Assembly: GCF_031179285.1 (NCBI RefSeq)
Contig: NZ_JAPSHY010000008.1
Location: 69,959-133,958 of the forward strand
Direction of reading: 5' to 3'
DNA from: Microbacterium sp.
GTDB lineage: Bacteria > Actinomycetota > Actinomycetes > Actinomycetales > Microbacteriaceae
DNA: 64,000 nucleotides
Part shown: positions 697 to 21,472 of the stretch, piece after piece
Position numbering within the stretch: the first letter of the stretch is position 1
How the letters are laid out: each line of letters starts with the position of its first letter
Notes under the pieces: generated by a model
Database searches by the model: none
Told to the model about the DNA's origin: nothing
What the model saw: the letters and a program-made list of their open reading frames with translations, nothing else
Program-made: the position numbers and the translations under genes

Positions 697-3985
<3,289 letters not shown>

Positions 3986-6396: not shown

Positions 6397-6518
6397 GTGA
6401 GTGTTCCAAGGTGTCGGAGCCCTGAATCACGGGCTTCTTGAAAGGCTACGCGAAAACCTGCCGCACCTCGACGCGGCAGCGGTGACGCACGCGCGCTCAC
6501 TGGTGAAGATACGATTGA

Positions 6519-7658
<1,140 letters not shown>

Positions 7659-7668
7659 ACTCGGCATT

Positions 7669-8460
7669 GTGAGTCACGCTGCTGTCGGGGCGCCGGGAAC
7701 GCCCCGGCGATACCTGCATTCACTCTGGCTGCTGTCGGCCCGCGATCTGAAGGTCCGCTACGCGACGAGCTTCTTGGGGTACGTCTGGTCGGTGCTCGAC
7801 CCTCTGGTGATGAGCCTGATCTACTGGTTCGTCTTCACTCAGGTCTTCAAGCGCTCCGTCGGCGAGGATCCGTACATCGTCTTCCTCATCGTCGCGCTTC
7901 TGCCGTGGGTGTGGTTCAACACCTCGGTGTCCGACTTCACGCGGGCCTTCCGCAAGGACTCGCGACTCGTTCGCTCCACGTCGATTCCGCGATCGATCTG
8001 GGTGAACCGGATTGTGCTCAGCAAGGGCGTCGAGTTCCTCTTCTCCCTTCCGGTGCTGGTGGTCTTCGCGATCCTCAACGGCGCAACCGTCACCTGGGCC
8101 CTGTTCTGGTTCCCGGTCGCGGTCATCCTGCAGGTGATGCTCCTCGTCGGCCTCGGGCTTTTAGTCGCTCCGCTGTGCGTCCTCTACACAGACCTCGAGC
8201 GGACAACTGCTCTCATCCTCCGAGCCCTCTTCTACGCGTCGCCGGTGATCTACAGCGTCCGTGACCTCCCAGCCCCCTTTGACGTCATCGGCTCTTTCAA
8301 TCCGCTTGCCGGCATCTTCACGCTCTATCGCGTCGGCTTCTTCCCCGACCAGTGGGAGACGATGCCTGTGATCATCAGCGTCGTGATAACGGTCGTCATC
8401 TTCGTCCTCGGAGTGTGGACCTTCAAGAGCCTCGAACGACCCGTGCTGAAGGAGCTGTGA
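7669..8460 (+). CDS. wzm: ABC-2 polysaccharide exporter permease
   Basis: RDLKVRYATSFLGYVWSVLDPL, 6 TM helices, FYASPVIYS, FNPL; GTG 7669 chosen. Confidence 0.92.
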   Translation: MSHAAVGAPGTPRRYLHSLWLLSARDLKVRYATSFLGYVWSVLDPLVMSLIYWFVFTQVFKRSVGEDPYIVFLIVALLPWVWFNTSVSDFTRAFRKDSRLVRSTSIPRSIWVNRIVLSKGVEFLFSLPVLVVFAILNGATVTWALFWFPVAVILQVMLLVGLGLLVAPLCVLYTDLERTTALILRALFYASPVIYSVRDLPAPFDVIGSFNPLAGIFTLYRVGFFPDQWETMPVIISVVITVVIFVLGVWTFKSLERPVLKEL

Positions 8461-9197
8461 TGCCGGTCGCCATCGAAGTGCAGAATCTCGGCGTCCACTT
8501 CCGACGCAATCGCCGCGGGCGGCGCAGCTTCAAAGATCTTTTCGCCGGAGCATCGCGCCGTTCCCGCCCAGGCGAGTTCTGGGCGCTCCGCGATGTCTCC
8601 TTCACCGTGCAGGCGGGGGAGTCCATCGGCGTCGTCGGTCGCAACGGGCAGGGCAAATCCACGCTCCTGCGCCTCGTCGCAGGCGTTCTCCTGCCTGACG
8701 AGGGCGGGGTGACGGTCAATGGGGGTGTCGCACCGCTGATCGAGATCACCGGGGGCTTCGTCGGCGATCTCACCGTGCGCGAGAACGTGCGCCTGACCGC
8801 GGGCCTGCACGGTATGTCCCGGGAAGAGGTGTCGCGTCGCTACGAAGGCATCATCGCTTTCGCGGAGCTCGAGGGCTTCGAGGACACTCCCTACAAGCAC
8901 CTGTCGAACGGTATGAAGGTGCGCCTGGCGTTCTCGGTGGTGTCGCAGCTCGACGAACCGATCCTGCTCGTGGACGAAGTGCTCGCCGTCGGCGACAAGG
9001 CCTTCCGCGAGAAGTGCTACAAGCGCATCGACGAGCTGCTTGCCGAGGGCCGGACGCTGTTCTTCGTCAGTCACAACGAGCGCGACCTTCGACGGTTCTG
9101 CACGCGGGGGTTGTATCTAGACAAGGGCGCACTCGCGCTCGATGCCCCCATCGCCGAGGTACTCGACCGCTACAACTCGGACTACAACCGACCGTAG
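8460..9197 (+). CDS. wzt: ABC polysaccharide exporter ATPase, with no C-terminal carbohydrate-binding domain
   Basis: FWALRDVSF, Walker A GRNGQGKST, LSNGMKVRL, LLVDEVLAVGD; 245 aa. Confidence 0.93.
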   Translation: MPVAIEVQNLGVHFRRNRRGRRSFKDLFAGASRRSRPGEFWALRDVSFTVQAGESIGVVGRNGQGKSTLLRLVAGVLLPDEGGVTVNGGVAPLIEITGGFVGDLTVRENVRLTAGLHGMSREEVSRRYEGIIAFAELEGFEDTPYKHLSNGMKVRLAFSVVSQLDEPILLVDEVLAVGDKAFREKCYKRIDELLAEGRTLFFVSHNERDLRRFCTRGLYLDKGALALDAPIAEVLDRYNSDYNRP

Positions 9198-9223
9198 CGG
9201 GGTCTTGGCGCACCGCTCGCCCG

Positions 9224-9955
9224 TTATCGCCCGGGCTTCTTCTGTTCGATGTGTGCGTTGATGGCCGCCAGATCCGGATTCGACTCAAGAACGCCGATGA
9301 TCTCTTCGGCTGTGCGAGTCTGCGCGTGGTGTTCGATGATCAGGCGTCGGATGAGCTCGAGATCCGCCGCGGTGTCCAGCGTGACCCGGTATGCGGATGC
9401 ATCGGATTCGCGCCGAACAGCGTGCATCGTAAAGCGCCCTGAGCGATTGGCGTAGAGATACGGCGTGACATGCTCACGGTCGGATGGTTCTGTCGCGTGG
9501 TGATCTGCCTCGATGAGCGCTTGCGTCGAGAACACTTCGAAGTCGAATCCTCGCGGATACGTTCGCTGTAGCACATTGGAGACGTGAGCGTACGGATCGT
9601 CGAGCGTCAGAAAGCGCTCAATCCCCTCGCGGATGACGGCGGGGTCGATGAGCGGGCAATCGGCGGTGACGCGGACCACGACGTCGAGCCCGGCCGCCTT
9701 CGCGGCGCCGGCGAAACGCGCGAGAACATCCTGCTCGCCGCCACGGAAAGTGCTGGCTCCGTGTGCGGCAGCCTCAGCGACGATCCCGTCATCGATGTCG
9801 TTCACGGTCGTCGCGACGGTCACCGGCACGCCGATCGGTGTCAGTCGGTCGAGTTGGTGGCCGAGCATCGATTTGCCGGCGACTTCGATGAGCACCTTTC
9901 CAGGCAAGCGAGTGCTCGTCATCCGCGCCTGGGTGATGATGCCGACCCGTCTCAT
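9224..9955 (-). CDS. pseF: SpsF-type nonulosonate cytidylyltransferase (CMP-Pse synthetase role)
   Basis: IITQARMTSTRLPGKVL, RVTADCPLIDP, YPRGFDFEV, REHVTPY, RVTLDT; lies directly downstream of pseBC. Confidence 0.8.
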   Translation of the reverse strand: MRRVGIITQARMTSTRLPGKVLIEVAGKSMLGHQLDRLTPIGVPVTVATTVNDIDDGIVAEAAAHGASTFRGGEQDVLARFAGAAKAAGLDVVVRVTADCPLIDPAVIREGIERFLTLDDPYAHVSNVLQRTYPRGFDFEVFSTQALIEADHHATEPSDREHVTPYLYANRSGRFTMHAVRRESDASAYRVTLDTAADLELIRRLIIEHHAQTRTAEEIIGVLESNPDLAAINAHIEQKKPGR

Positions 9956-11076
9956 CGCAGTGCTCGGATGAGGCTGTCGACCACACGGTCCACCTGATCG
10001 TCGGTGAGGTCTGGATAGATCGGCAGGGAGAGTTCCTCAGCGTAGAATGCCTCGGCATTGGGGCACATGCCGCGCCGGTATCCCGCGTCCGCGTAGACGG
10101 GGTGCCAGTACACAGGCATGTAGTTCACCTGCACACCGATACCGTCACCGCGCATTCGTTCGAACACCTCGCGTCGGCGACCGTCGAGGATCCTCACCGG
10201 GTAAAGGTGACGTACGAGCTCGACATTCGCCCGCTGCACCGGCAGTCTCACCCCATCGACATCTTGTAGCGCGATGTCGTACCGGCGGGTGATCTCCTGG
10301 CGCCGCCTCCGGAAATGGTCAAGGCGGCGAAGCTGAGCGATTCCGAGTGCAGAGGCGATATCGGTCAGGCGGTAGTTCACGCCGAACTCGTGAACCTCTT
10401 GGTGCCATGCTCCTTCGGTCGATATGCGAAATCGGTCCGGATCGCGGACGAGTCCGATGAAGTGGAACTCGTGCGCGCGCTGAGCGAGGAGCGGGTCCTT
10501 CGCCACCACCGCCCCGCCTTCGCCGGTCGTCATGTTCTTGGTTGGGAAGAACGAGAATGTCGTGATATCGGCGAGATCTCCGACGGGTCGCCCGTTGTAT
10601 GTGCTGCCGATCGAGTGGGCGGCGTCGTCGAGAACGAGGGCGCCGACCTTGGCGGTCACTGCGGCGAGACGATCGTAATCGGCTGGGTGTCCGGCATAGT
10701 CCACTGCAGCGACGACCTTCGTCTTGTCGTCGACGAGTGCATCGACGGCCGCGGGATCGATGAGCGCGGTGTCTTCCTCGACGTCGGCGAAGATGACCGA
10801 AGCACCGAGCATCGACGCCATGGATGCCGTCGCGATGAAAGTCATCGGCGTGGAGATGACCGTGTCGCCCGACGCTATCCCAGCAGCGGCGTACGCCATG
10901 TGGAGCGCGGCACTGCCGGAAGTCGCGCTCACGGCTCTGTGCCCTCCCGCGAGTTCTCCGATACGGCTCTCGAAGGCTGCGACGGTCGGTCCGGTGGTCA
11001 GCCAGTCGCCGCGGAGGATCGCGGTGACAGCTTCGATGTCATCGTCTGTTATCGATTGTCGTCCGTAGGGCAACAT
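9952..11076 (-). CDS. pseC: UDP-4-amino-4,6-dideoxy-N-acetyl-beta-L-altrosamine transaminase (DegT family)
   Basis: MLPYGRQSI, DWLTTGP, DDAAHSIG, SFFPTKNMTTGEGG, NYRLTDI. Confidence 0.9.
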   Translation of the reverse strand: MLPYGRQSITDDDIEAVTAILRGDWLTTGPTVAAFESRIGELAGGHRAVSATSGSAALHMAYAAAGIASGDTVISTPMTFIATASMASMLGASVIFADVEEDTALIDPAAVDALVDDKTKVVAAVDYAGHPADYDRLAAVTAKVGALVLDDAAHSIGSTYNGRPVGDLADITTFSFFPTKNMTTGEGGAVVAKDPLLAQRAHEFHFIGLVRDPDRFRISTEGAWHQEVHEFGVNYRLTDIASALGIAQLRRLDHFRRRRQEITRRYDIALQDVDGVRLPVQRANVELVRHLYPVRILDGRRREVFERMRGDGIGVQVNYMPVYWHPVYADAGYRRGMCPNAEAFYAEELSLPIYPDLTDDQVDRVVDSLIRALR

Positions 11077-11078
11077 TC

Positions 11079-12068
11079 TCAGATGCCTCGCCGGATGATC
11101 TCCGCGATTTGCTCTCGCGTGTACCACTGATCATTGCTGTCGGAGCGATACGCGAATCCGTCCGCTACGACCTCAGCTCCCTCTGGAGCCGAGTATCCCC
11201 ACGAAGCCAGATCCGGCTGGATGATGAAGTATTTGCCGTCGCTGACGACGACCGTCCGCCGCCCCTCTTCCGGGCTGATCATCTCCTCGTGCAACTTCTC
11301 GCCGGGCCGCAGTCCCACATCGATGAGCTCGGCATCCGGTGCGACGGCGTGGGCCAGGTCGGTGACTCTCATGGACGGGATCCGCGGAACAAGGAGTTCC
11401 CCTCCCTGCATCAACTCGAAGGTTTCAACGACCATCTCGACTGCCTGCGGCAAGGTGATGAAAAACCGGGTGCAGCGGAGGTCGGTGATCGGCAAGGGTT
11501 CCCCCGAGGCGCCGAGTTTCGCGAAGAACGGGATGACCGAACCCCGAGACCCCATCACGTTCCCGTAGCGGACGACCGCGAAGCGCGTTTCGTATGCCGC
11601 CGCGTAGTGGTTCCCGGTGATGAAGAGCTTGTCAGCGGTGAGTTTCGTTGCGCCGTAGAGGTTGATCGGACTCGAGGCCTTGTCGGTCGAGAGCGCGACA
11701 ACTTTCTTCACGCCGGCGTCGATTGACGCTTCGATGACGTTCTGACTGCCGAGGACGTTCGTCTTGACGAACTCGAAGGGATTGTATTCCGCGGTGTCCA
11801 CCTGCTTGAGGGCCGCGGCGTGAACGACGTAATCCACGCCGTGCAGTGCACGCACCAGACGCCGCTCGTCGCGGATGTCGCCGATGAACCAGCGGAGCCG
11901 AGGATCGTCGTTGAACTGCTGACGAACCTCATACTGTTTGAGCTCGTCCCGAGAGAAGATGACCAGGCGTCGCGGACGCAGGTTCTCCAGCGCATGACGG
12001 ATGAACGCCTTGCCGAACGAGCCGGTGCCACCGGTGATGAGGATGCTCGAGCCCTCGAGAATCGACAA
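11079..12068 (-). CDS. pseB: UDP-N-acetylglucosamine 4,6-dehydratase (inverting)
   Basis: ILITGGTGSFGK, FSRDELKQ, HAAALKQV, STDKASSPINLYGATK, RYGNVMGSRGSV, GLRPGEKLHE; TTG start with AGGAGA RBS. Confidence 0.95.
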   Translation of the reverse strand: MSILEGSSILITGGTGSFGKAFIRHALENLRPRRLVIFSRDELKQYEVRQQFNDDPRLRWFIGDIRDERRLVRALHGVDYVVHAAALKQVDTAEYNPFEFVKTNVLGSQNVIEASIDAGVKKVVALSTDKASSPINLYGATKLTADKLFITGNHYAAAYETRFAVVRYGNVMGSRGSVIPFFAKLGASGEPLPITDLRCTRFFITLPQAVEMVVETFELMQGGELLVPRIPSMRVTDLAHAVAPDAELIDVGLRPGEKLHEEMISPEEGRRTVVVSDGKYFIIQPDLASWGYSAPEGAEVVADGFAYRSDSNDQWYTREQIAEIIRRGI

Positions 12069-12210
12069 GCTGTCTCCTTGGCAATAGATGCGGACGCGGG
12101 CGAATCCTCGAGTGCCCTCCTGCCGAACTATCCTATCGGTGGGCGATCGCCCCACATGTCGATCCCTATACGCGGAGGACAGCGGCTTGCGCGAAGACGA
12201 AGGGACTGCG

Positions 12211-13710
12211 ATGGCTCGTCGAGTGCTTCTGCACTGCAACGCAGGCGGCCCCCATGGGATGGGGCATCTGATGAGATGTCTCGCCCTGGCCGACATCGCG
12301 CAGGAGCGGGGATGGCACGCCGCGCTGGTCGGAGACATCGACGAGGTCGGCTCCGCCGTGGCCGATCGGTTGTCCCCGCAGCTTGAGATCGTTCAATCAG
12401 CGTCGCTGCGGCGAAGCCGCTCCGCGACCAGCGTGTTCGCTGACGTCGAAGTGGTGCATCTGGACAGCTACTCGGACCTGCCCTTCACGATCCCCCGTGG
12501 GCTCCTGGTGAGCAACATGCAGGACGGACCGTTCGGCGTTCGCCCCGCAGATCTCGCCGTCGACGGCAACCTCGGCGCTGAGTTCCGGTTCGATCAGGCT
12601 GAGCTGAGCGCGCATCAACTCGTAGGCGCGGATGCCGCAGTGGTGCGCAATCAGGTGCTTCGACAGCGTGCGATCGACCCTGTCGAATCGGACCGGGTAC
12701 GAGTGCTGATCGTGATGGGGGGCACGGATCCGCTCGGTCTGACCTCTCGAGTTTTGCTCGCACTCGACAGCATCACAGTGCCGCTGGCCGTGACAGTGGT
12801 CGACCCGAATCAATCGAGCGACGTCCGATTGATCGCCGCCCGGTCTGCTCACCGAATCAGTGTCAGCGGCTTCGTTGATGACCTTCCCGCGCTCGCGCGC
12901 GAACACGATCTCGCTGTCAGCGCCGCCGGCACCTCGGTATGGGATTTCGCATGTATGGGAGTTCCGATGGCACTGCTCTGCGCGGTGGACAACCAACTCG
13001 CTGGCTACCGCACTGCAGTCGACGCGGGACTGGCTATCGGGTTGGGCACACCGCCGCATCGCGATCTGGAAAGGCGAGTCGCGGCGCTCGCTCCCCTTCT
13101 CGGCGATCGCCATGCGCTCCGTCGCCAACGTGACCGACTCATGCGCGTCATCGACGGACTAGGAGGCTGGCGAATCGTCGCAGCGTGGGAGGCGCTCATC
13201 TCGCGACGCGTGAAAGCGATCGACGCGCGTGCAGAGGAGCTCACCGTTCGCCGCGCGCGGCTCGACGATGCTTCACTCCTGTTCGAATGGCGCAATGACT
13301 CGGTGACGCGTCTGAATTCGCGTTCTACGGAAGTCCTGGATTGGGAGAGCCATCAAGCGTGGCTGGCCGCGTGCGTCGCAGACTCGGCTCGGCTGCTCCT
13401 GATCGCGGAGCATCGAGGCACGCCGATGGCGACGGTGAGGTGGGACCAGAAGGCCGGTGTCGACTGGGAGGTCTCGATCACCATGGCGCCGGAGTACCGC
13501 GGACGGGGACTCAGCGGAGCCGTACTGACGGCAGCCGAGCGGTCACTGCCTGCGTCAGCACCGGTCAGGATGCTTGCCGTCGTCCATGAAGCGAATGCGG
13601 CGTCGCTAGCCCTTTTCGCCCGCGCGGGCTACCTTCCGCATCTACCGTCGAATGCGGACGGATACGAGTCATGGGCGAGGTGGCAGCTGCCTTCCCCAGC
13701 TGCCGACTAA
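12211..13710 (+). CDS. pseG: Fused PseG (UDP-sugar hydrolase) and PseH (GNAT N-acetyltransferase)
   Basis: N-terminal GMGHLMRCLALA, MGGTDP, DLAVSAAGTS..., DNQ; C-terminal LFEWRND...H..W, PEYRGRGLS, NAASLALF. Confidence 0.87.
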   Translation: MARRVLLHCNAGGPHGMGHLMRCLALADIAQERGWHAALVGDIDEVGSAVADRLSPQLEIVQSASLRRSRSATSVFADVEVVHLDSYSDLPFTIPRGLLVSNMQDGPFGVRPADLAVDGNLGAEFRFDQAELSAHQLVGADAAVVRNQVLRQRAIDPVESDRVRVLIVMGGTDPLGLTSRVLLALDSITVPLAVTVVDPNQSSDVRLIAARSAHRISVSGFVDDLPALAREHDLAVSAAGTSVWDFACMGVPMALLCAVDNQLAGYRTAVDAGLAIGLGTPPHRDLERRVAALAPLLGDRHALRRQRDRLMRVIDGLGGWRIVAAWEALISRRVKAIDARAEELTVRRARLDDASLLFEWRNDSVTRLNSRSTEVLDWESHQAWLAACVADSARLLLIAEHRGTPMATVRWDQKAGVDWEVSITMAPEYRGRGLSGAVLTAAERSLPASAPVRMLAVVHEANAASLALFARAGYLPHLPSNADGYESWARWQLPSPAAD

Positions 13711-14768
13711 ATCAGGTCCCACGACAGCGGTGTGCCACGCTTGACGTCTCGGACGAATCGCCTCCCGACGATCTCATTGAAACAGTCGGGGGGCAGTCCG
13801 CCAGCGGGGCGGATCGAGCGCACATTCTCCGGAGCGACCGGTTCCCCCGCCCTCACGTCGGCGACCACGAACAGCGAGCGCCGCAGTGCGACGACAGCTC
13901 TTTCATCCGGTGTTGGCCCGAACGAGACGCCGCTCGATGCGGCGACGCGAGCTTGCTCGGACGCGGTGACGAGGGCAGAGAACTCTGAGGGGGTGAGGGA
14001 GAACTCCGAATCCACGCCGCCGTCCGCGCGGTCCAGTGTGACATGTTTTTCTACGACCACCGCACCGAAACCGGCGGCTGCAACGGCCACGCCGATTCCC
14101 GTCGTGTGATCCGACAGCCCCACCGGCACATCGAACGCCTCTCGCAGTGCTCGGATGTTCCCCAGGCGGGCCTCTTCCGGCACAGCGGGGTACGCGGCTG
14201 TGCATGCCAGGAGCACCAGTTGAGAGCACCCTGCGTCGCGCATCGCTGTGACCGCCGAGTCGATCTCGGACAGCGTGGCCATCCCTGTCGAGACGATCAC
14301 GGGCTTCCCTGTACGGGCGACCTCTCGAAGCAGCGGCAAGTCGACGATCTCGGCCGAAGCCGTCTTGTACAACTCCACGCCGAGGTCCTCGAGAAACGCG
14401 ACGGAACTGGGGTCGAACGGCGTTGAGAAGGGGAGAAGGCCGTGCTTACGCGTGCGTGCGAAGATCTCCGCGTGCCACTCCCATGGGGTGTGGGCTTCCC
14501 GGTACAGGGAGTAGAGATTTCGACCGCCCCAAAGATCATGGTCGCCTCTCACGCGGAACGCGGGCAGGTCCGAATCGATGGTCAGGGTGTCGGCGGTATA
14601 CGTCTGAATCTTCAGCGCCTTCGCACCCGTGGTCGCAACGGCGTCCACGATGCTCAGCGCCCGCGACAACTCTCCGTTGTGGTTGCCGGACATCTCGGCA
14701 ATGGTGAATATCGGCTGTCCGCGACCGATTGAAGAGTTCGAGAGCGCAATGGTCTGGGAGGCATCCAC
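13707..14768 (-). CDS. pseI: Pseudaminic acid synthase
   Basis: IAEMSGNHNG, KIQTYTADTLT, STPFD, KTASAE, STGMA, GLSDHT, EKHVTL, C-terminal SAF domain RRSLF...RSIRPAGGL; GTG 14768 follows TAGAGT by 7 nt. Confidence 0.93.
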   Translation of the reverse strand: MDASQTIALSNSSIGRGQPIFTIAEMSGNHNGELSRALSIVDAVATTGAKALKIQTYTADTLTIDSDLPAFRVRGDHDLWGGRNLYSLYREAHTPWEWHAEIFARTRKHGLLPFSTPFDPSSVAFLEDLGVELYKTASAEIVDLPLLREVARTGKPVIVSTGMATLSEIDSAVTAMRDAGCSQLVLLACTAAYPAVPEEARLGNIRALREAFDVPVGLSDHTTGIGVAVAAAGFGAVVVEKHVTLDRADGGVDSEFSLTPSEFSALVTASEQARVAASSGVSFGPTPDERAVVALRRSLFVVADVRAGEPVAPENVRSIRPAGGLPPDCFNEIVGRRFVRDVKRGTPLSWDLI

Positions 14769-14861
14769 GCTTCTCACTCTAGAGGCGAGAGGAGTCCGGC
14801 GTTCACACCCCTTGACGCCAACGTCGTGGGACCGTGCTGTTGTTGCCCTAAGCTTGGTGCC

Positions 14862-15557
14862 ATGGGGCGCGTAACGGAGCTCGCCGTCGACGATGTATCG
14901 ACAGCGGACGCGAATTTTTATGACCGGTTGAAACCATTGGCTGCGAGTTACGCGCGTACCCAAGTGGTGCGTCGTGTCGCGGTGGTGGGAAACCAGCCGT
15001 TGCAGTCGTCCGAGCACAGGGCAGCGCAGATCGACGGGGCGGACCTGGTCTTTCGCGTCAACGGATTCCGAGTGGATGAGCCCGACGCGCCGCCGGTGGT
15101 CGGCCGCCATACCGATATCGTCGTGTTCAACCGAGGGGTGAGACCGACGCCCTGGTTCTTCCACGACTATGCTGAGCGGCTTTACCTGATGATCGAGCCG
15201 GGTCGACTGCTCTGGGAGAACCCGAAGATCCCGGCGTTCTGGCCGGCGGACCTCGGTATCGTCACCGTCCCGAACCGAGAGGTGATATTGCCGCTGGGAC
15301 GTGCACTCGGCGCGGATCCCCGAGATGGCGGGCACTGGGCCACGACGGGTACTGTGATGCTCTGGATAGCGGCCCACCTTTTTCCCGAAGCCACGGTGGA
15401 TGCATACGGCTTGTCGTTCGTGGATGAACCGAGTCAGAAATCCTGGGACCATGCCTACGGCGACTCTTCACCGGTCGGCGAGGAGCACCTCATCGAGTTG
15501 GAGTCGCGACTCGTGCGGGGCTGGATTGATGCCGGCCGGGTCTACTACCACCGTTGA
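14862..15557 (+). CDS. GT29/GT42-like sialyltransferase-fold protein; candidate pseudaminyltransferase
   Basis: Motif L RVAVVGN...IDGADLVFRVN...VGRHTDIVVFN; motif S ATTGTVMLWIAAHLFPEATVDAYGLSF; motif III-like DHAYGD; motif VS HLIELE (H-x4-E); TAAGCT -10 lies 7 nt before the ATG. Confidence 0.75.
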   Translation: MGRVTELAVDDVSTADANFYDRLKPLAASYARTQVVRRVAVVGNQPLQSSEHRAAQIDGADLVFRVNGFRVDEPDAPPVVGRHTDIVVFNRGVRPTPWFFHDYAERLYLMIEPGRLLWENPKIPAFWPADLGIVTVPNREVILPLGRALGADPRDGGHWATTGTVMLWIAAHLFPEATVDAYGLSFVDEPSQKSWDHAYGDSSPVGEEHLIELESRLVRGWIDAGRVYYHR

Positions 15558-15587
15558 GAAACTGAACCATCGACCGATGAGGATTGC

Positions 15588-15956
15588 ATGCTGAAACGAC
15601 TGCGCCGTCGTATGGACGAAGCCGTGGAGCGCCGCGTGGACGCGCGAGTCGCCGTGAAACTCGAGCAGGTGCTCGCTGAGCTGGAGAAATCGCAACGCGA
15701 TTACGAAGCGCGCCTCGGTGGAACGCAGGCGGACTTCTCCTTCATCCGCTCAGAGTTCGATCGCATCGCCCCACAGCTTGCGGCTCTTGAGCAGAGATTT
15801 GAGGCGCTGCGTGCTCAGATCGACCTCACGGATGTGGACCCCGCGCACGCACTGGTCCTGGCCAGGGCGGAACACGAACGCGCCCGCCTGAGATTGGAGA
15901 TCGCCTCTCACTATGAGGAGCGTCTGCGGCGACTGGAAGACGAGCCGCGCGTCTGA
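15588..15956 (+). CDS. Small coiled-coil hypothetical protein
   Basis: 122 aa, rich in L/E/R/A with heptad-like periodicity; 30 bp downstream of the GT29-like gene on the same strand. Confidence 0.75.
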   Translation: MLKRLRRRMDEAVERRVDARVAVKLEQVLAELEKSQRDYEARLGGTQADFSFIRSEFDRIAPQLAALEQRFEALRAQIDLTDVDPAHALVLARAEHERARLRLEIASHYEERLRRLEDEPRV

Positions 15957-16006
15957 GCGTCACGTCGCAGCACTGAGCCCACGAGGCGAGGCGGAAGCGA
16001 GGTTGA

Positions 16007-16597
16007 TCAGAGACCGACCAGGTTTCGCAGCGCGTTCGCCCTGGTCCGTGAGTCGCCGACGGACAGAGAGTCGCCAGCGCTCGCCGCTTCTCGAAGGTCT
16101 TCGAGGCTCGCGGCATAGGCCGCGACTCCGTCCTGCCACTCCGTCTCGATGGCGGACGGCGGTTGAGTGCCTCCCAGGCGCTGAGCGTCGCCCTGGAGGG
16201 TGTCGATGATCGTCAGGGCCTCCGAGTCGTCGCTGTCCGCCACGAAGTCCAAGCCGGCCAAGGCGTCGTCGAGCCAGGGCTGCACCTGGCCGCGGAAGAA
16301 CGCCAGATCCGGATCGGCAGGTGGTGGGGGAGTGTCAACGGGGTTCGGCTCCGGTGCGGTAGTCGTTCCAGGTGTCGGTGTCGGTGTCGGCGTCGGGATC
16401 TGGGTGGCCGACGACGATGCCGTGGGCGTCGGCGTTCCCACCGGCTGCCCATCGTCGCGCGGGATCAGGAAGAAGAGCAGGAGCGCGACGATGATCACGG
16501 CCGCGACCGAGAGCCCCACGATCAGCCACACCCGCCCGCGGTTCCGCGGTTTCGGCGGGATCGGCGCCCACCGAACGTCCGGCTGCTGTTCGCTCAT
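16007..16597 (-). CDS. Single-pass membrane protein with a Pro/Thr linker and a helical extracellular domain
   Basis: MSEQQPDVRWAPIPP, hydrophobic VWLIVGLSVAAVIIVALLLFFLI, PTPTPTP repeats; GGAGG RBS. Confidence 0.8.
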   Translation of the reverse strand: MSEQQPDVRWAPIPPKPRNRGRVWLIVGLSVAAVIIVALLLFFLIPRDDGQPVGTPTPTASSSATQIPTPTPTPTPGTTTAPEPNPVDTPPPPADPDLAFFRGQVQPWLDDALAGLDFVADSDDSEALTIIDTLQGDAQRLGGTQPPSAIETEWQDGVAAYAASLEDLREAASAGDSLSVGDSRTRANALRNLVGL

Positions 16598-16599
16598 CG

Positions 16600-17556
16600 T
16601 CATGCCTCCAGGGGTGCCATCGGCTGCCAGGTGCGGTCGCGCCCCAGCTTGCCGCCCTCGCGGAGTCCGCGGAAGAGGTTGCTGGTTCCGCGCACCGTCC
16701 TCTCGACGAACACGAGCCGGATGAGTTCCTTCGCGAACGTCATCGCCGTTCCGAGGCCGAACAGCACGGGGTTGTAGACGCCGTGCGCGCGGTAATACTG
16801 CTTGATGTACGCGCGATTGCGCATGATGTAGAAGCGGTAGGCGTTGCTTGACGCATTCATGTGGCGGATGCCCATGTCCCACTGCTTGATCTCACGGGTG
16901 CGCCGCAGGACGAACTCGTCGACGATGACCGCGGTGGTCTTGCGCGACGCCAGCCAGCCATACGTCTGATCGTCCCAGTAGATGAAGAATCGGGGATCAG
17001 GAAGGCCGATCTGCTGCACGATCGAACGGTGGATGAACATGCCCTCGAAGCATCCGCTGTTCATCTCCTTGTAGCCGGACTCGTCAAAGCTCGAGGGCGC
17101 GAACGGAATCGGGATGCCCATGCGCTCGGCGATGCGGTACTGCCAGTAGAACTCGCTGCCGTCGTAGTCGTAGCGGCGGCCCTGAATGCTCTTGAATCGG
17201 GGCGCCCACTTGCCCATCTTGGCTAGTCCGTCCGCAACGACCTCGACGTCGTCGTCCATCATCCAGATCCACTCGGACCCGAGCTCGTACGCGGTTCGCA
17301 TGCCCTCGCTGAATCCGCCGGATCCGCCGGTGTTCGTCTTCAGCCGGCGATAGACGATCTCGGTGCCGATCCGTTCGCGGAAGGACTCCACGACGTCGGT
17401 CGTGTCATCCGACGAGGCGTTGTCGATGATCACCACATGACCCGGCTTCGGGGCCATCGCGGTGATGCTCTCGAGGAGTCCGGTGAGAAGGTGCGATCGG
17501 TTGTAGGTGACGATCACGATCGTCGCGGATGCCGGGTCGAAGGGGACGTGTGTCAC
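16600..17556 (-). CDS. GT2 glycosyltransferase, GlfT1-like (galactofuranosyltransferase)
   Basis: VIVTYNRS, IIDNASSD, NTGGSGGF, WIWMMDDD, FEGMFI, GLPDPRFFIYWDD, YIMRN. Confidence 0.85.
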   Translation of the reverse strand: MTHVPFDPASATIVIVTYNRSHLLTGLLESITAMAPKPGHVVIIDNASSDDTTDVVESFRERIGTEIVYRRLKTNTGGSGGFSEGMRTAYELGSEWIWMMDDDVEVVADGLAKMGKWAPRFKSIQGRRYDYDGSEFYWQYRIAERMGIPIPFAPSSFDESGYKEMNSGCFEGMFIHRSIVQQIGLPDPRFFIYWDDQTYGWLASRKTTAVIVDEFVLRRTREIKQWDMGIRHMNASSNAYRFYIMRNRAYIKQYYRAHGVYNPVLFGLGTAMTFAKELIRLVFVERTVRGTSNLFRGLREGGKLGRDRTWQPMAPLEA

Positions 17557-17689
17557 GAGGTGGGATCTCCGGAAGGCTGTGGGCTCGCGGGGCGCCGCGA
17601 GCAGGCACAAGCCTACCTGGCGGAGTTCCGGATCCCCCGAGGGCCAGCCGCGAAAGGGGAGACGTACGCCGCGCGATAGCATGACCGCC

Positions 17690-18679
17690 ATGAAGATTCT
17701 GATCACGGGCGGTGCCGGGTACATCGGATCGACGATCGCGACGGCATGTCTCGACGTCGGAATCGAGCCGATCCTGCTGGACGATCTCTCCACGGGCCTG
17801 CGTGCCTTCGGGAACGGACGATCGTTGTACGTGGGCGACATCGCCGACCAGCAGATCCTCGACCGCCTCTTCGCGGACCACCCCGACATCGACGCCGTCA
17901 TCCACTGCGCTGCGCGCATCGTCGTGCCCGAGTCCGTGGCCGACCCGCTCGGGTACTACGACGCGAACGTCGCCAAGACGATCACGTTCCTCCGGCGCAT
18001 GCGCGAGGCAGGAGTCGGGCGCGTCGTCTTCAGCTCTTCCGCCGCCGTCTACCAGGGCGAGTCGGGCGACGGCGTCGACGAGAGCGGTGCTCTCGCCCCC
18101 TCGAGCCCCTACGCGACCACGAAGGCGATGGTCGAGCAGATCCTCGCCGATGCCGCGGCCGCGGGCGACTTCCGCGCCATCGCGCTGCGTTACTTCAATC
18201 CCATCGGCGCCGACCCGCAGATGCGCACCGGTCTGCAGAATCCGATGCCCTCTCATGTACTCGGCAAGATCATGCAGGCGAGGGCGGCCGGCACTGCGTT
18301 CACGATCACGGGGAGCGACTGGCCGACCCGGGACGGCTCCGGCATCCGCGACTACGTCCACGTCTGGGATCTCGCCCTCGCGCACGTCGCGGCCGTCACG
18401 CGCTTCGACGAGGTCGCGACCACCGACGCGCCGTACCAGGTGATCAACCTCGGAACGGGCGATGGCGTCACCGTCCGCGAGCTCGTGGGCGCCTTCGAGC
18501 ACGTGACCGGCGAGCCGCTCGATGTCGTCGAGACCGAACGCCGTCCCGGTGACCAGGCCGGCGCCTACGCCATCGTCAAGCGTGCCGCCGATGTGCTCGG
18601 GTGGCGGGCGGAACGCTCGCTCGACGACGGGGTACGCGACGCGCTGGCGTGGGCGGAGAAGCTTCGCACCTTGCGCTGA
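17690..18679 (+). CDS. galE: UDP-glucose 4-epimerase
   Basis: MKILITGGAGYIGS, ESVADPLGYY, FSSSAAVY, YATTK, LRYFNPIGA, GIRDYVHVWDLA. Confidence 0.93.
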   Translation: MKILITGGAGYIGSTIATACLDVGIEPILLDDLSTGLRAFGNGRSLYVGDIADQQILDRLFADHPDIDAVIHCAARIVVPESVADPLGYYDANVAKTITFLRRMREAGVGRVVFSSSAAVYQGESGDGVDESGALAPSSPYATTKAMVEQILADAAAAGDFRAIALRYFNPIGADPQMRTGLQNPMPSHVLGKIMQARAAGTAFTITGSDWPTRDGSGIRDYVHVWDLALAHVAAVTRFDEVATTDAPYQVINLGTGDGVTVRELVGAFEHVTGEPLDVVETERRPGDQAGAYAIVKRAADVLGWRAERSLDDGVRDALAWAEKLRTLR

Positions 18680-18698
18680 GACGCGACGCTCGCCCGAG

Positions 18699-20000
18699 CT
18701 ACAGCTGCGGTCGGAGTGTCGGGATGACGCCGGTGTTGGCCGCGTCGATGCTCTCCCGCCACGAGCGGGACTGCCCCGCGCGAAGCGCGCACAGGACGAG
18801 CATGAACCAGCCGGCGCCCGCGAGCGTGAAGCTCTCGAACATCGACTCGACGGCGAGGGTCACCAGCACCAGCGGCGTCCAGGCGTAGACAACGGAGCGG
18901 CGCACGCTCGCGACCAGCCACGATCGGATGAGTGCGACGCCGCCCAGCAGGAGGAACAGCACGAGACCCGCGGCCCCCAGCTGCAGCAGGGTGTCGAAGT
19001 ACGCGTTCAGCGCCGACTGGTGGCGGTCGTCGAGGCGGAAGTTGATGTAGGTGAAGGGATACTCGCCCCGGGCCCACGGTCCGAACCATCCCCAGCCCTG
19101 CACCGGGTTGATGGCCGTGAAATCGAGGATGGTGTTCCACAGCGTCGCTCGGACCGAGAAGTCGGACCCGGCATCGAGCAACGCGATGATCTGATGGCGG
19201 AACGCGAAGGCGACCGCGAGTGACAGGGTCACGAGCGCACCGAGCGTCCACTGCACGAGGTTCCGGCGGTCTGCGGAGGTGTGACGAACGATCATGAGGG
19301 CGCCCGTCGCGATTCCCACGGCGAATGCCAGCACCAGCACCGTGGGGGAGGCCGACAGCAGCGCCAGCATTCCCGCGAGGGCGATCGAGGGCACCGAGAT
19401 CGGCGCACTCACCGACTGCGTCCGCCACTCGATGACGAACGTGATGAGGGCGATCACCGCCACGAAACCGAGCATGTTGCGGGTGCCGAAGATGCCCTGC
19501 ACCGGCCCGCCCATCGCTAGCTGCCCCTGGATGCCGAGGAATGTGAACGGCAGGTCGAGGATGATCCCCGACATGATCTCGAGTCCAAGCGAGATGCCCA
19601 GCAGAGCGCGCAGACTGTCGCCGATCGCGCGCACGGTCTGGAGGGTGTCGCGGATATGTCCGATGGTGATCGCGAGGAACGCGTACCCGAACAGCGCCAT
19701 CCAGCCGAACAGCGTGTCCGAGTGATCCGTCGTCCAGAAGATGCTCGTGAGCGCCCATGCCATGAACGCCAGGAGCGACGACGGTGCGATCCGCAGGAGC
19801 GAGAGCTCCTCCCGCCGGACGAACAGGACCGCGGCTCCGAGTACGCAGAGCACGGCGATGATCGTCGCCAGGGTGGTCATCGACGTCGCGCGTTCGATGG
19901 CGAACGAGCCGAAGATCGCGGTCAGGACCGTGAGTGTGAACGCCCGCGCCACCTCCACGGAACCCAGCAGGCGCCCGAGGCGCGACCGCGTCGTCGTCAC
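18699..20000 (-). CDS. O-antigen ligase/polymerase (Wzy_C)-like membrane protein, lacking the conserved His
   Basis: About 12 TM helices; GIFGTRNMLG, RATLW, PVQGWGW, SALNAYFDTLLQLG. Confidence 0.75.
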   Translation of the reverse strand: MTTTRSRLGRLLGSVEVARAFTLTVLTAIFGSFAIERATSMTTLATIIAVLCVLGAAVLFVRREELSLLRIAPSSLLAFMAWALTSIFWTTDHSDTLFGWMALFGYAFLAITIGHIRDTLQTVRAIGDSLRALLGISLGLEIMSGIILDLPFTFLGIQGQLAMGGPVQGIFGTRNMLGFVAVIALITFVIEWRTQSVSAPISVPSIALAGMLALLSASPTVLVLAFAVGIATGALMIVRHTSADRRNLVQWTLGALVTLSLAVAFAFRHQIIALLDAGSDFSVRATLWNTILDFTAINPVQGWGWFGPWARGEYPFTYINFRLDDRHQSALNAYFDTLLQLGAAGLVLFLLLGGVALIRSWLVASVRRSVVYAWTPLVLVTLAVESMFESFTLAGAGWFMLVLCALRAGQSRSWRESIDAANTGVIPTLRPQL

Positions 20001-21418: not shown

Positions 21419-21472
21419 CGCGTTCAGGCTACCGCCCCGTGCCGCGCCCTCGGTGGCTCTACGCTGGATGCC

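What the first reader, a model, noticed from the sequence alone, without database searches (positions are those of the whole stretch)
9224..15956. Self-contained Pse cassette inserted into a Rha/Galf wall-glycan locus
Seen: all six Pse activities are present (PseB, PseC, PseG+PseH, PseI, PseF), plus the GT29-like and coiled-coil genes. They form four alternating blocks (-, +, -, +) between wzt and the GT2/galE genes. By eye the block uses more A/T-ending codons than the backbone. Known: Pse is best studied on Gram-negative flagella, LPS and capsule; in actinobacteria it is reported chemically in wall teichulosonic acids. Inference: a horizontally exchanged module that puts a sialic-acid mimic on the surface, affecting phage receptors or host interaction.
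Basis: partly seen in the sequence, partly recalled or inferred. Interest (0 to 1): 0.68.

Follow-up and report, generated by a model that had tools for sequence, protein, structure and literature searches.

The report
Accessory pseudaminic-acid cassette in Microbacterium wall-glycan locus
A soil-type Gram-positive bacterium (Microbacterium) carries a 6.8-kb optional gene block that should make the sialic-acid-like sugar pseudaminic acid and attach it to a cell-wall sugar polymer; most related species lack the block or carry other genes at that spot, so it behaves like a surface-variation module.

Summary
Window 9198-16006 holds seven genes in four alternating strand blocks: pseB-pseC-cytidylyltransferase (-), a pseG-pseH fusion (+), pseI (-), and a GT29-fold transferase plus a helical partner (+). 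The block lies exactly between the convergent stop codons of wzt and a small membrane-protein gene. The surrounding locus is rmlABCD-glf-wzm-wzt-GlfT1-like. Cassette GC3 is 0.72-0.80, against 0.82-0.89 in the flanks and a genome mean of 0.854. The predicted synteny test holds: of 78 Microbacterium species loci, 47 have an empty site (10-151 bp), 17 carry other cargo and 14 carry the Pse cassette. Genus-wide, 16 of 301 species have a bona fide PseI.

The history differs from a simple recent insertion. The cassette tree mostly tracks the backbone tree. One empty site keeps a pseF 3' scar, which shows loss. AU tests support one transfer within the genus. No mobility genes, tRNA or boundary repeats were found.

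The GT29-like gene and its partner travel with pse genes next to galactan wzm/wzt genes in three actinobacterial orders, so the GT29-like enzyme is the likely pseudaminyltransferase. The sugar product, its acceptor and any ecological role are inferred, not shown. This is a moderately interesting variant of a known kind.

The parts
6522..7658 (+). glf (UDP-galactopyranose mutase), conserved backbone gene
   Evidence: PF03275 hit of 278.5 bits at G000:C66:76921-77556, which is window 6963-7598. GC3 is 0.88. 83-95% identical in 78 species. The overlapping 424-aa minus-strand ORF (6393-7667) is a shadow ORF (GC1 0.85, GC3 0.60).
7705..8460 (+). wzm, ABC-2 permease of the glycan exporter
   Evidence: PF01061, 59.3 bits. 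GC3 0.857.
8457..9197 (+). wzt, ABC ATPase and left flank of the slot. It has 246 aa and consists of the nucleotide-binding domain only, with no C-terminal carbohydrate-binding module.
   Evidence: PF00005, 72.2 bits. GC3 0.838. 83-94% identical in relatives. Its stop codon abuts the membrane gene in 47 species.
9224..9955 (-). CMP-nonulosonate cytidylyltransferase (PseF role, SpsF-like PF02348 subfamily)
   Evidence: PF02348, 85.7 bits. No TIGR03584 PseF hit. Best solved relative is 6OEW, 'Cytidylyltransferase', E 4e-41. Its start overlaps the pseC stop by 4 bp. GC3 0.742.
9952..11076 (-). pseC aminotransferase
   Evidence: TIGR03588, 408.5 bits (cut-off 423.5), against LegC at 186.8 bits. 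The ATG at 11076 forms an ATGA overlap with the pseB stop. GC3 0.735.
11079..12068 (-). pseB, inverting UDP-GlcNAc 4,6-dehydratase
   Evidence: TIGR03589, 464.4 bits, above the 407.75 cut-off. TTG start at 12068 is preceded by AGGAG. GC3 0.798.
12211..13710 (+). pseG-pseH fusion: N-terminal UDP-sugar hydrolase, C-terminal GNAT N-acetyltransferase
   Evidence: TIGR03590 PseG, 90.8 bits, E 1e-25, model positions 2-274 of 280 (below the 153.55 cut-off). PF13302/PF00583 GNAT at residues 345-475. TIGR03585 PseH, 22.9 bits. The two domains are separate genes in Pseudonocardiaceae and fused in Naasia. GC3 0.719.
13707..14777 (-). pseI, pseudaminic acid synthase (NeuB + SAF domains)
   Evidence: TIGR03586, 422.5 bits, above the 340.25 cut-off; NeuB model 271 bits. 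PF03102 + PF08666. GC3 0.757.
14862..15557 (+). GT29-fold glycosyltransferase, candidate pseudaminyltransferase. Soluble, with no cysteines.
   Evidence: PF00777, 31.9 bits. AlphaFold model pLDDT 90. The top 30 Foldseek PDB hits are all GT29 sialyltransferases (6apl E 1.4e-8, TMq 0.45-0.59). Motif L aligns to ST8SiaIII. Invariant H197, H209 and E214. No TM segment and 0 Cys. Co-occurs with PseI.
15588..15956 (+). 122-aa all-helical partner protein, always directly after the GT29-like gene
   Evidence: Three long helices (2-43, 50-80, 85-118), pLDDT 69. Homologous to the small ORF after GT29 in Saccharomonospora, Amycolatopsis and Naasia (BLASTP E 1e-11; conserved C-terminal YE[ED]RLR[RK]LE, read HYEERLRRLE in this protein). 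No Pfam hit above cut-off.
16007..16603 (-). Small single-pass membrane protein with a Pro/Thr-rich linker; right flank of the slot
   Evidence: TM segment at residues 27-45. Present in all 78 loci but only 35-57% identical. GC3 0.818.
16600..17499 (-). GT2 glycosyltransferase, GlfT1-like, conserved backbone gene (true start lies upstream and was not fixed)
   Evidence: PF00535, 54.3 bits. NF050113 GlfT1, 65.8 bits (cut-off 330). 88-95% identical in 80 species. GC3 0.873.
17681..18679 (+). galE, sitting in a second variable slot between GT2 and the Wzy_C-like genes
   Evidence: TIGR01179, 317 bits. In relatives the slot is empty (about 160 bp), holds galE alone (about 1.2 kb), or holds 2.1-kb or 3.1-kb inserts.

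Best explanation
Window 9198-16006 is a complete module for making and transferring pseudaminic acid. It occupies a variable 'accessory slot' of the conserved Microbacterium wall-glycan locus (rmlA, rmlB, rmlCD, glf, wzm, wzt | slot | membrane gene, GlfT1-like GT2).

Inferred chemistry. PseB, PseC, the GNAT (PseH) domain and the PseG domain convert UDP-GlcNAc to 2,4-diacetamido-2,4,6-trideoxy-L-altrose. PseI condenses that sugar with PEP to give Pse5Ac7Ac. The PF02348 cytidylyltransferase makes CMP-Pse. The soluble, cysteine-free GT29-fold enzyme, probably working with its helical partner, adds Pse to the lipid-linked rhamnose/galactofuranose glycan on the cytoplasmic side. Wzm/Wzt then export the glycan.

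History. The module is old within the genus and behaves like a serotype determinant. It has mostly co-diverged with the backbone, has been deleted or replaced many times, and has been exchanged at least once between species by recombination through the conserved flanks.

What is shown: gene content, fold, composition, slot structure, patchy distribution, one deletion scar and one tree incongruence.
What is inferred: the sugar product, the acceptor and any ecological effect.
For: Gene identities.

Composition: cassette GC3 0.715-0.798, flanks 0.82-0.89, genome mean 0.854 +/- 0.048. The GC3 step coincides with the boundaries defined by synteny.

Slot contents in 78 species loci:
- 47 empty (10-151 bp between the two stop codons)
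- 13 with inserts of 1.1-2.3 kb
- 4 with a 5.9-kb insert
- 14 with a 6.75-6.93-kb Pse cassette (6809 bp here), plus one further cassette-bearing locus (L025) cut off by a contig end and not among the 78

Alternative cargo includes a pyruvyl transferase and an RgpF/GT2/PMT set.

Distribution:
- PseI above cut-off in 16 of 301 genus genomes.
- At least 8 state changes on the backbone tree; the window's nearest relatives, L010 and L031, have empty slots.

Age and loss:
- Cassette and backbone trees are largely congruent.
- Divergence of cassette genes (pseB 89%, pseC and pseI 80%) is comparable to manA (70%) and wzy1 (76%).
- L040's empty site retains about 37 nt of the pseF 3' end, encoding ...AVNAHVEQKK.

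Exchange: L001+L050 are sisters in the cassette tree only; AU p = 7e-5 and 1e-6.

GT29-Pse link:
- 13 of 14 GT29-bearing genomes have PseI close by, and only 4 of 287 other genomes have PseI. Fisher p = 1.6e-18, which largely reflects physical linkage.
- The same GT29 + small helical ORF + pse gene set lies beside wzm/wzt or GlfT2 in Saccharomonospora, Amycolatopsis and Naasia. Gene orders are rearranged among these.
- A GT29-like gene also lies within 9 kb of PseI in Nocardioides, Actinophytocola and Actinokineospora.
Against:
- PseC, PseG and PseH score below the NCBIfam equivalog cut-offs, and the cytidylyltransferase is not a TIGR03584 PseF.
- The backbone tree is built from genes of the same locus, not from core genes, so congruence could partly reflect co-transfer of the cassette with its flanks.
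- The AU-tested groups were named after the trees had been seen.
- Lower GC3 is seen in every carrier (about 0.80-0.90 vs 0.88-0.94). It may therefore reflect weak codon selection rather than foreign origin.
- The acceptor is unknown. This genome also has a second, conserved nonulosonate locus.
Confidence: 0.72

Rival explanations
1. Recent horizontal insertion from outside the genus. The cassette arrived in this lineage as a foreign island, which is the simple form of the first reader's reading.
For: - Six of the seven cassette genes have GC3 in the bottom 1-5% of the genome; pseB lies near the 12th percentile.
- The window's nearest backbone relatives, L010 and L031, have empty sites.
- The cassette is rare in the genus, 16 of 301 species.
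Against: - All closest homologues are Microbacterium cassettes at the identical site (pseB 88-91%, pseI 77-82%). The best match outside the genus is PseI at 68% in Nocardioides.
- The window's cassette sits deep on its own branch, in parallel with its backbone position.
- No integrase, tRNA or flanking repeats, and no plasmid copy.
- A deletion scar in L040 shows that empty sites can arise by loss.
Confidence: 0.1
2. The product is not pseudaminic acid but legionaminic acid or another nonulosonic acid.
For: - PseC, PseG and PseH are below equivalog cut-offs, and the cytidylyltransferase belongs to a non-PseF subfamily.
- A related Microbacterium (G299) pairs GT29 and the helical partner with PseB, an RmlD-like reductase and a NeuB-like synthase. 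The module can therefore serve other nonulosonates.
Against: - PseB and PseI pass the curated equivalog cut-offs.
- Each Pse model beats the corresponding Leg/Neu model by a wide margin: 464 vs 62, 408 vs 187 and 422 vs 271 bits.
- A PseG-type hydrolase domain matches the whole model at E 1e-25.
- All seven ORFs are assigned, so no NeuC/LegG-type 2-epimerase and no GDP-sugar-forming enzyme is encoded in the block.
Confidence: 0.06
3. Pse is made here but goes onto something other than the Rha/Galf wall glycan, for example a glycoprotein (flagellin, pilin or S-layer) or a separate teichulosonic-acid polymer.
For: - Pse is best known as a protein O-glycan.
- Actinobacterial Pse has been reported in teichulosonic acids (Tul'skaya et al. 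2011, cited in the reference list seen).
- This genome has a second nonulosonate locus with a polysialyltransferase-like gene.
- Wzt lacks a carbohydrate-binding module that could sense a Pse cap.
Against: - The cassette contains one small GT and no polymerase-like or Maf/FlmG-like gene.
- In three actinobacterial orders it lies directly beside wzm/wzt and GlfT1/GlfT2 genes.
- The same slot carries other glycan-modifying cargo, such as a pyruvyl transferase and an RgpF set, in other species.
- Kribbella and Actinoplanes PseI loci lack the GT29-like gene within 9 kb, so the polymer-type systems appear to use other enzymes.
Confidence: 0.15

Closest known systems
CMP-pseudaminic acid pathway of Campylobacter jejuni / Helicobacter pylori (PseB, PseC, PseH, PseG, PseI, PseF)
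   Same: The same six activities are present, in a UDP-GlcNAc-based route. PseB and PseI reach NCBIfam equivalog cut-offs. PseC and PseG are clear homologues.
   Different: - PseG and PseH are fused into one 499-aa protein.
- The cytidylyltransferase is an SpsF-like PF02348 member, not TIGR03584 PseF.
- The transferase is GT29-fold rather than Maf-type.
- The presumed target is a wall polysaccharide of a Gram-positive actinobacterium, not flagellin.
Eukaryotic GT29 sialyltransferases (ST6GalNAc2 6APL, ST3Gal-I 2WNB, ST8SiaIII 5BO6) and the bacterial GT29-like sequences of Proteobacteria (Petit et al. 2018, PMC5811610)
   Same: - Same fold: the top 30 PDB matches are all GT29.
- Motif L aligns by HMMER.
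- Motifs resembling S (WATTG), III (HAY) and VS (H-x4-E) are invariant in the family.
- A CMP-nonulosonate donor is expected.
   Different: - Only 231 aa, with no membrane anchor and no cysteines, so it is cytoplasmic.
- Found in Actinobacteria, which that paper did not report.
- Genetically tied to Pse rather than Neu5Ac synthesis.
- Always paired with a small helical protein.
- Sequence similarity to solved GT29 enzymes is marginal (E 0.002-0.1).
Variable regions of ABC-transporter-dependent O-antigen, capsule and wall-polysaccharide loci (serotype-determining cassettes exchanged through conserved flanks)
   Same: - Conserved flanks with alternative cargo in one slot.
- Patchy distribution.
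- Lower GC3 than the flanks.
- No mobility genes.
- Evidence for both loss and exchange within the genus.
   Different: The slot lies between two convergent stop codons only 10-60 bp apart when empty. The cassette has largely co-diverged with the backbone rather than being shuffled freely.
Mycobacterial / corynebacterial galactan system (Rha-GlcNAc linker, Glf, GlfT1/GlfT2, Wzm/Wzt)
   Same: - The backbone holds rml genes, glf, a GlfT1-like GT2 and wzm/wzt.
- In Pseudonocardiaceae the GT29-Pse module lies beside GlfT2, GT2 and wzm/wzt.
   Different: - The GlfT1 match is weak (65.8 bits against a cut-off of 330).
- No Pse decoration of such galactans turned up in the literature searches run here.
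- Microbacterium has no mycolyl-arabinogalactan.
Chain-terminating cap systems of ABC-dependent O-antigens (E. coli O9a WbdD; Klebsiella O12 WbbB with beta-Kdo cap and coiled-coil ruler), recalled from general knowledge
   Same: An ulosonic-acid transferase associated with a coiled-coil element, in an ABC-transporter-dependent glycan pathway.
   Different: - The helical protein is a separate 122-aa polypeptide.
- Wzt (246 aa) has no carbohydrate-binding module, and it looks the same in species with and without the cassette.
- A terminator role is therefore speculative.

Membership tests
CMP-pseudaminic acid biosynthesis pathway | PseB: inverting UDP-GlcNAc 4,6-dehydratase/5-epimerase (TIGR03589 equivalog) | tested here: met
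   464.4 bits against a cut-off of 407.75; FnlA 240 bits, LegB 62 bits.
CMP-pseudaminic acid biosynthesis pathway | PseC aminotransferase (TIGR03588 equivalog) | tested here: inconclusive
   408.5 bits, just under the 423.5 cut-off, but far above LegC (186.8) and ArnB (258.6).
CMP-pseudaminic acid biosynthesis pathway | PseH N-acetyltransferase | tested here: inconclusive
   A GNAT domain is present (PF13302 34.6 bits, PF00583 33.3 bits). TIGR03585 scores only 22.9 bits against a cut-off of 93.1. The role is assigned from the fusion to PseG and from context.
CMP-pseudaminic acid biosynthesis pathway | PseG UDP-sugar hydrolase (TIGR03590) | tested here: inconclusive
   90.8 bits, E 1.1e-25, covering model positions 2-274 of 280, below the 153.55 cut-off. 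No solved relative was found by sequence.
CMP-pseudaminic acid biosynthesis pathway | PseI synthase (TIGR03586 equivalog) | tested here: met
   422.5 bits against a cut-off of 340.25; NeuB model 271.2 bits.
CMP-pseudaminic acid biosynthesis pathway | PseF CMP-Pse synthetase (TIGR03584 equivalog) | tested here: not met
   No TIGR03584 hit at E <= 1e-3. The protein is a PF02348 cytidylyltransferase (85.7 bits) nearest to the uncharacterised 6OEW. The activity is inferred from its constant presence in these cassettes.
CMP-pseudaminic acid biosynthesis pathway | Product shown chemically to be Pse | not testable with these tools
   Needs NMR or MS of cell-wall hydrolysates.
GT29 sialyltransferase family | Match to the family profile (PF00777) above the gathering score | tested here: met
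   31.9 bits against a cut-off of 23, but only over residues 42-103 of the 243-aa ORF (motif L region).
GT29 sialyltransferase family | GT29 (GT-A variant) fold | tested here: met
   Model pLDDT 90, pTM 0.88. Foldseek ranks 1-30 are all GT29 enzymes, probability 1.00, E 1.4e-8 to 7e-4, TMq 0.44-0.59. The next hits are unrelated, with probability mostly under 0.2 (one at 0.84, TM about 0.4).
GT29 sialyltransferase family | Sialylmotifs L, S, III and VS, including the catalytic His of VS | tested here: inconclusive
   Motif L is aligned by HMMER to ST8SiaIII. The S-like WATTG, the III-like H197-A-Y and the VS-like H209-x4-E214 are invariant in 38 homologues. They were assigned by inspection, not by structural superposition.
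GT29 sialyltransferase family | Type II membrane anchor and conserved disulfide between motifs L and S | tested here: not met
   No hydrophobic segment (maximum KD19 0.96) and zero cysteines. This is a soluble cytoplasmic variant.
GT29 sialyltransferase family | Transfers a CMP-activated nonulosonate | not testable with these tools
   Only gene linkage supports it: GT29 sits next to PseI in 13 of 14 genus genomes and in three orders.
Horizontally acquired genomic island | Composition deviating from the genome | tested here: met
   GC3 0.715-0.798 against a genome mean of 0.854 +/- 0.048. The step occurs exactly at the slot borders. A smaller offset is seen in all carriers.
Horizontally acquired genomic island | Patchy distribution with empty sites in relatives | tested here: met
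   47 of 78 loci are empty and 14 of 78 carry the Pse cassette. At least 8 state changes on the tree. PseI in 16 of 301 species genus-wide.
Horizontally acquired genomic island | Mobility signatures (integrase, tRNA target, flanking repeats, plasmid copies) | tested here: not met
   All ORFs are biosynthetic. No tRNA in 1-24000. No repeats at the borders. No plasmid match.
Horizontally acquired genomic island | Gene tree incongruent with the host tree | tested here: inconclusive
   Mostly congruent. One strongly supported conflict (L001+L050; AU p = 7e-5 and 1e-6). The host tree was built from locus genes only.

The most novel reading that the evidence does not exclude
The soluble GT29-fold protein and its small helical partner form a previously uncharacterised class of bacterial nonulosonate (pseudaminyl) transferase. 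This pair decorates or caps ABC-exported galactofuranan-type wall glycans across Actinobacteria (Microbacteriaceae, Pseudonocardiaceae, Nocardioides). It would be a cytoplasmic prokaryotic lineage of the fold used by eukaryotic Golgi sialyltransferases. The helical partner may act as a tether or chain-length ruler.
Probability: 0.45. Interest if true: 0.7.

Novelty: new variant of a known kind. Interest (0 to 1): 0.5.

Why it matters
Pseudaminic acid has been found chemically in actinobacterial cell walls. However, no paper in the searched library describes its genetics or its transferase in this phylum.

This locus offers a compact, testable system. It has a conserved galactofuranan/rhamnose export backbone with one slot, and that slot is empty, holds Pse genes, or holds other modification genes (for example a pyruvyl transferase). 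This natural variation makes a ready panel for asking how wall-glycan decoration affects phage adsorption, lectin or toxin targeting, and plant or animal host interaction.

The locus also links a rare GT29-fold family to Pse. Only 34 clusters at 50% identity score below 1e-30 among 1.84 billion representatives. That bears on the bacterial origin of eukaryotic sialyltransferases and could yield an enzyme for chemo-enzymatic pseudaminylation.

Tried and rejected
- The 424-aa minus-strand ORF 6393-7667 was at first taken as a gene. Its codon-position G+C (GC1 0.85, GC3 0.60) and a PF03275 hit on the other strand show that it is a shadow of glf.
- My first genome-wide GC3 gene set was contaminated by shadow ORFs. 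It was redone with the filter GC3 > GC1 > GC2.
- Total G+C does not distinguish the cassette from the left part of the locus (0.634 vs 0.639). Only GC3 does.
- No border repeats, tRNA or integrase were found, and there is no plasmid copy.
- Literature searches for Pse in Microbacterium, GT29 with Pse, pseudaminyltransferase, teichulosonic acid, and galactofuranan in Microbacteriaceae found nothing on this system. The library lacks most subscription-journal papers on cell-wall chemistry.
- The pattern-based locus search with PseI recovered only two Microbacterium loci. It therefore shows the nearest out-of-genus relatives but cannot be used for counts.
- The helical partner gave no family hit and only a medium-confidence model.
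- A recent foreign origin and legionaminic acid as the product were both considered and judged unlikely (see the rival explanations).

Full report
**What is there.** The window comes from a Microbacterium genome (3.59 Mb, 68% G+C). All 80 loci retrieved with the neighbouring GT2 protein are Microbacterium or close MAGs, at 88-95% identity. The left part of the window is a wall-glycan locus:
- rmlA (679-1566)
- rmlB (1569-2564)
- an rmlC-rmlD fusion (2561-3985)
- an AT3-SGNH acyltransferase (4285-6396, minus strand)
- glf (6522-7658)
- wzm (7705-8460)
- wzt (8457-9197)
- the block in question
- a small membrane-protein gene (16007-16603, minus)
- a GlfT1-like GT2 (16600-17499, minus)
- galE (17681-18679)
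- two Wzy_C-like membrane proteins
- manA

. The label 'Rha/Galf locus with an ABC exporter' is therefore justified. glf was first missed because a longer shadow ORF lies on the opposite strand.

**The block.**
- pseB (11079-12068), pseC (9952-11076) and a PF02348 cytidylyltransferase (9224-9955) form a minus-strand operon with 4-bp overlaps.
- A pseG-GNAT (pseH) fusion (12211-13710) is transcribed divergently from pseB across 142 bp.
- pseI (13707-14777, minus) converges on the fusion gene.
- A GT29-like gene (14862-15557) and a 122-aa helical protein (15588-15956) are transcribed divergently from pseI.

PseB (464 bits) and PseI (422 bits) pass NCBIfam equivalog cut-offs. PseC falls just short (408 against 423). 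The PseG domain matches the whole model at E 1e-25 but below cut-off. PseH is recognisable only as a GNAT domain. The cytidylyltransferase is not a TIGR03584 PseF. Its nearest solved relative is an uncharacterised cytidylyltransferase, 6OEW.

Each Pse model beats its Leg/Neu counterpart by a wide margin. No ORF is left over that could be a NeuC/LegG-type epimerase. Pse is therefore the best-supported product.

**Composition.** A genome-wide set of 2293 ORFs, filtered for GC3 > GC1 > GC2, has a GC3 mean of 0.854, sd 0.048 and 5th percentile 0.759. The cassette genes have GC3 values of 0.742, 0.735, 0.798, 0.719, 0.757, 0.734 and 0.715. The immediate flanks are 0.857 (wzm), 0.838 (wzt), 0.818 (membrane gene), 0.873 (GT2) and 0.886 (galE). 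The step coincides with the slot borders, so the 'by eye' observation is confirmed.

Two caveats apply. Total G+C does not separate the block from the left flank. In the 14 other carriers the cassette also runs 0.05-0.10 below its flanks. The offset is thus a persistent property and not, on its own, a sign of recent arrival.

**Synteny test.** In 78 species-representative loci the distance between the wzt stop and the membrane-gene stop is:
- 10-151 bp in 47 loci (empty)
- 1.1-2.3 kb in 13 loci
- 5.9 kb in 4 loci
- 6.75-6.93 kb in 14 loci that carry the same seven genes in the same order; the window's distance is 6809 bp

. One more locus has the cassette cut off by a contig end.

The other inserts are also glycan-modifying. 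They include a polysaccharide pyruvyl transferase (L029), an RgpF-like gene plus a GT2/GT1 protein plus a PMT-like GT-C (L058), and unknown genes (L012). This is a genuine variable slot. A second such slot lies between GT2 and the Wzy_C-like genes, where galE sits here.

Across 301 species of the genus, a PseI above cut-off occurs in 16.

**History.** On a tree built from five backbone proteins, presence of the cassette needs at least 8 changes (15 carriers of 78; shuffled mean 13.9). The window's nearest neighbours, L010 and L031, are empty.

Several results nevertheless argue against a recent import:
- The cassette is not a foreign newcomer. Its genes are 51-91% identical to those of other Microbacterium carriers, a spread comparable to backbone genes such as manA (70%) and wzy1 (76%).
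- The cassette and backbone trees are largely congruent.
- The best PseI outside the genus is only 68% identical (Nocardioides).
- The 109-bp 'empty' site of L040 still contains about 37 nt of the pseF 3' end at 88-95% identity to many carriers, encoding ...AVNAHVEQKK. This is direct evidence of deletion.

One conflict is strong. L001 and L050 are sisters in the cassette tree (100/100). The backbone data reject that grouping (AU p = 7e-5), and the cassette data reject the backbone grouping (p = 1e-6). There has therefore been at least one exchange within the genus.

There are no border repeats, no tRNA, no integrase and no plasmid copy. Movement is presumably by homologous recombination through the conserved flanks. 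The backbone tree comes from locus genes, and the AU groups were chosen after seeing the trees. A core-genome tree is needed for firm counts.

**The transferase.**
- Relatives: the 231-aa protein has 139 relatives at 90% clustering. Most are from Microbacterium. Others are from Naasia, Schumannella, Jatrophihabitans, Saccharomonospora, Prauserella, Amycolatopsis and Actinophytocola.
- Rarity: the family is rare. It has 34 clusters at 50% identity with E <= 1e-30 among 1.84 billion representatives.
- Fold: a confident model (pLDDT 90) matches only GT29 sialyltransferases in its top 30 PDB hits.
- Motifs: motif L aligns to ST8SiaIII. WATTG, H197-A-Y and H209-x4-E214 are invariant.
- Location: the protein has no membrane anchor and no cysteines, so it should act in the cytoplasm.

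The link to Pse rests on gene neighbourhood.
- Within the genus, 14 of 301 genomes have the GT29-like gene, and 13 of these have PseI close by.
- The fourteenth (G299) pairs it with PseB, an RmlD-like reductase and a NeuB-like synthase, which suggests a variant nonulosonate.
- Only 4 of the other 287 genomes have PseI. At least one of them (G003) has a different Pse cluster with a 1028-aa unknown protein in place of the GT29-like gene.
- In Saccharomonospora marina, Amycolatopsis cihanbeyliensis and Naasia, the GT29-like gene, a homologous small helical ORF (E 1e-11) and the pse genes lie together in rearranged order. They sit beside wzm/wzt or GlfT2.
- A GT29-like gene also lies within 9 kb of PseI in Nocardioides, Actinophytocola and Actinokineospora. 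It does not in Micromonospora, Kribbella, Actinoplanes or Nonomuraea.

This is good circumstantial evidence that the GT29-like enzyme is the Pse transferase acting on the ABC-exported glycan. It remains an inference.

Wzt is a bare 246-aa ATPase with no carbohydrate-binding module, and it looks the same in species with and without the cassette. A cap-sensing export mechanism is therefore not supported. The helical partner's role is open (three long helices, pLDDT 69).

**Literature.** The searchable library holds nothing on Pse in Microbacterium or on a GT29-type pseudaminyltransferase. Bacterial GT29-like sequences have been reported only from Proteobacteria (PMC5811610). Actinobacterial teichulosonic acids are known chemically (reference seen). 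NCBI already labels these proteins 'glycosyltransferase family 29 protein'.

**Verdict.** It is a new variant of a known kind, of moderate interest. Most of that interest lies in the GT29-fold candidate pseudaminyltransferase and in the natural panel of slot variants.

Noticed in passing
window 4285-6396 (-): The AT3-SGNH acyltransferase has the lowest GC3 in the locus (0.68-0.69). Relatives match it at only 30-40% identity. It is probably another variable O-acylation gene inserted between rmlCD and glf.
   Followed up: partly
window 6393-7667 (-) vs 6522-7658 (+): The longest ORF here (424 aa, minus strand) is a shadow ORF (GC1 0.85, GC3 0.60). The real gene is glf on the plus strand (PF03275, 278 bits).
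   Followed up: yes
window 17500-18700; L001-L080 between GT2 and the first Wzy_C-like gene: A second variable slot. In relatives it is empty (about 160 bp), holds galE alone (about 1.2 kb, as here), or holds 2.1-kb or 3.1-kb inserts.
   Followed up: partly
G000:C54:134700-141700 (L084 3777-10674), outside the window: A second nonulosonate locus in the same genome: GT2, an alpha-2,8-polysialyltransferase-like protein (PF07388), a CTP-transferase+HAD fusion, NeuB without a SAF domain, and a DUF6716 glycosyltransferase. Weaker NeuB-type matches (about 200 bits to the PseI model), as given by this paralogue, account for most of the 179 of 301 Microbacterium species with any match. It looks like a Kdn-type teichulosonic acid cluster.
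   Followed up: partly
L165 (G299:C1:2640000-2657000) 4766-10870: Another Microbacterium species pairs the GT29-like gene and helical partner with PseB, an RmlD-like reductase (no aminotransferase), a NeuB-like synthase, a GT4 and a cytidylyltransferase. This may be a pathway to a 7-hydroxy nonulosonate.
   Followed up: partly
L166 (G003:C3:2519000-2536000) 5462-15006: A second type of Microbacterium Pse cluster. It has separate PseG and PseH, no GT29-like gene, a wzm-like permease and a 1028-aa protein with no family match (a candidate transferase or polymerase).
   Followed up: partly
L040 11497-11605: The 'empty' slot of this Microbacterium MAG keeps about 37 nt of the pseF 3' end. This is a deletion scar of the cassette.
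   Followed up: yes
G000:C66:56414-64139 (about 6-13.5 kb upstream of the window start): Another run of five low-GC3 genes (mean 0.76) lies just outside the window. It may be more variable surface-glycan genes.
   Followed up: no
window 18699-21712 (-): Two adjacent Wzy_C / O-antigen-ligase-like membrane proteins sit in a locus that otherwise uses an ABC exporter. Both are conserved in all 78 relatives.
   Followed up: no
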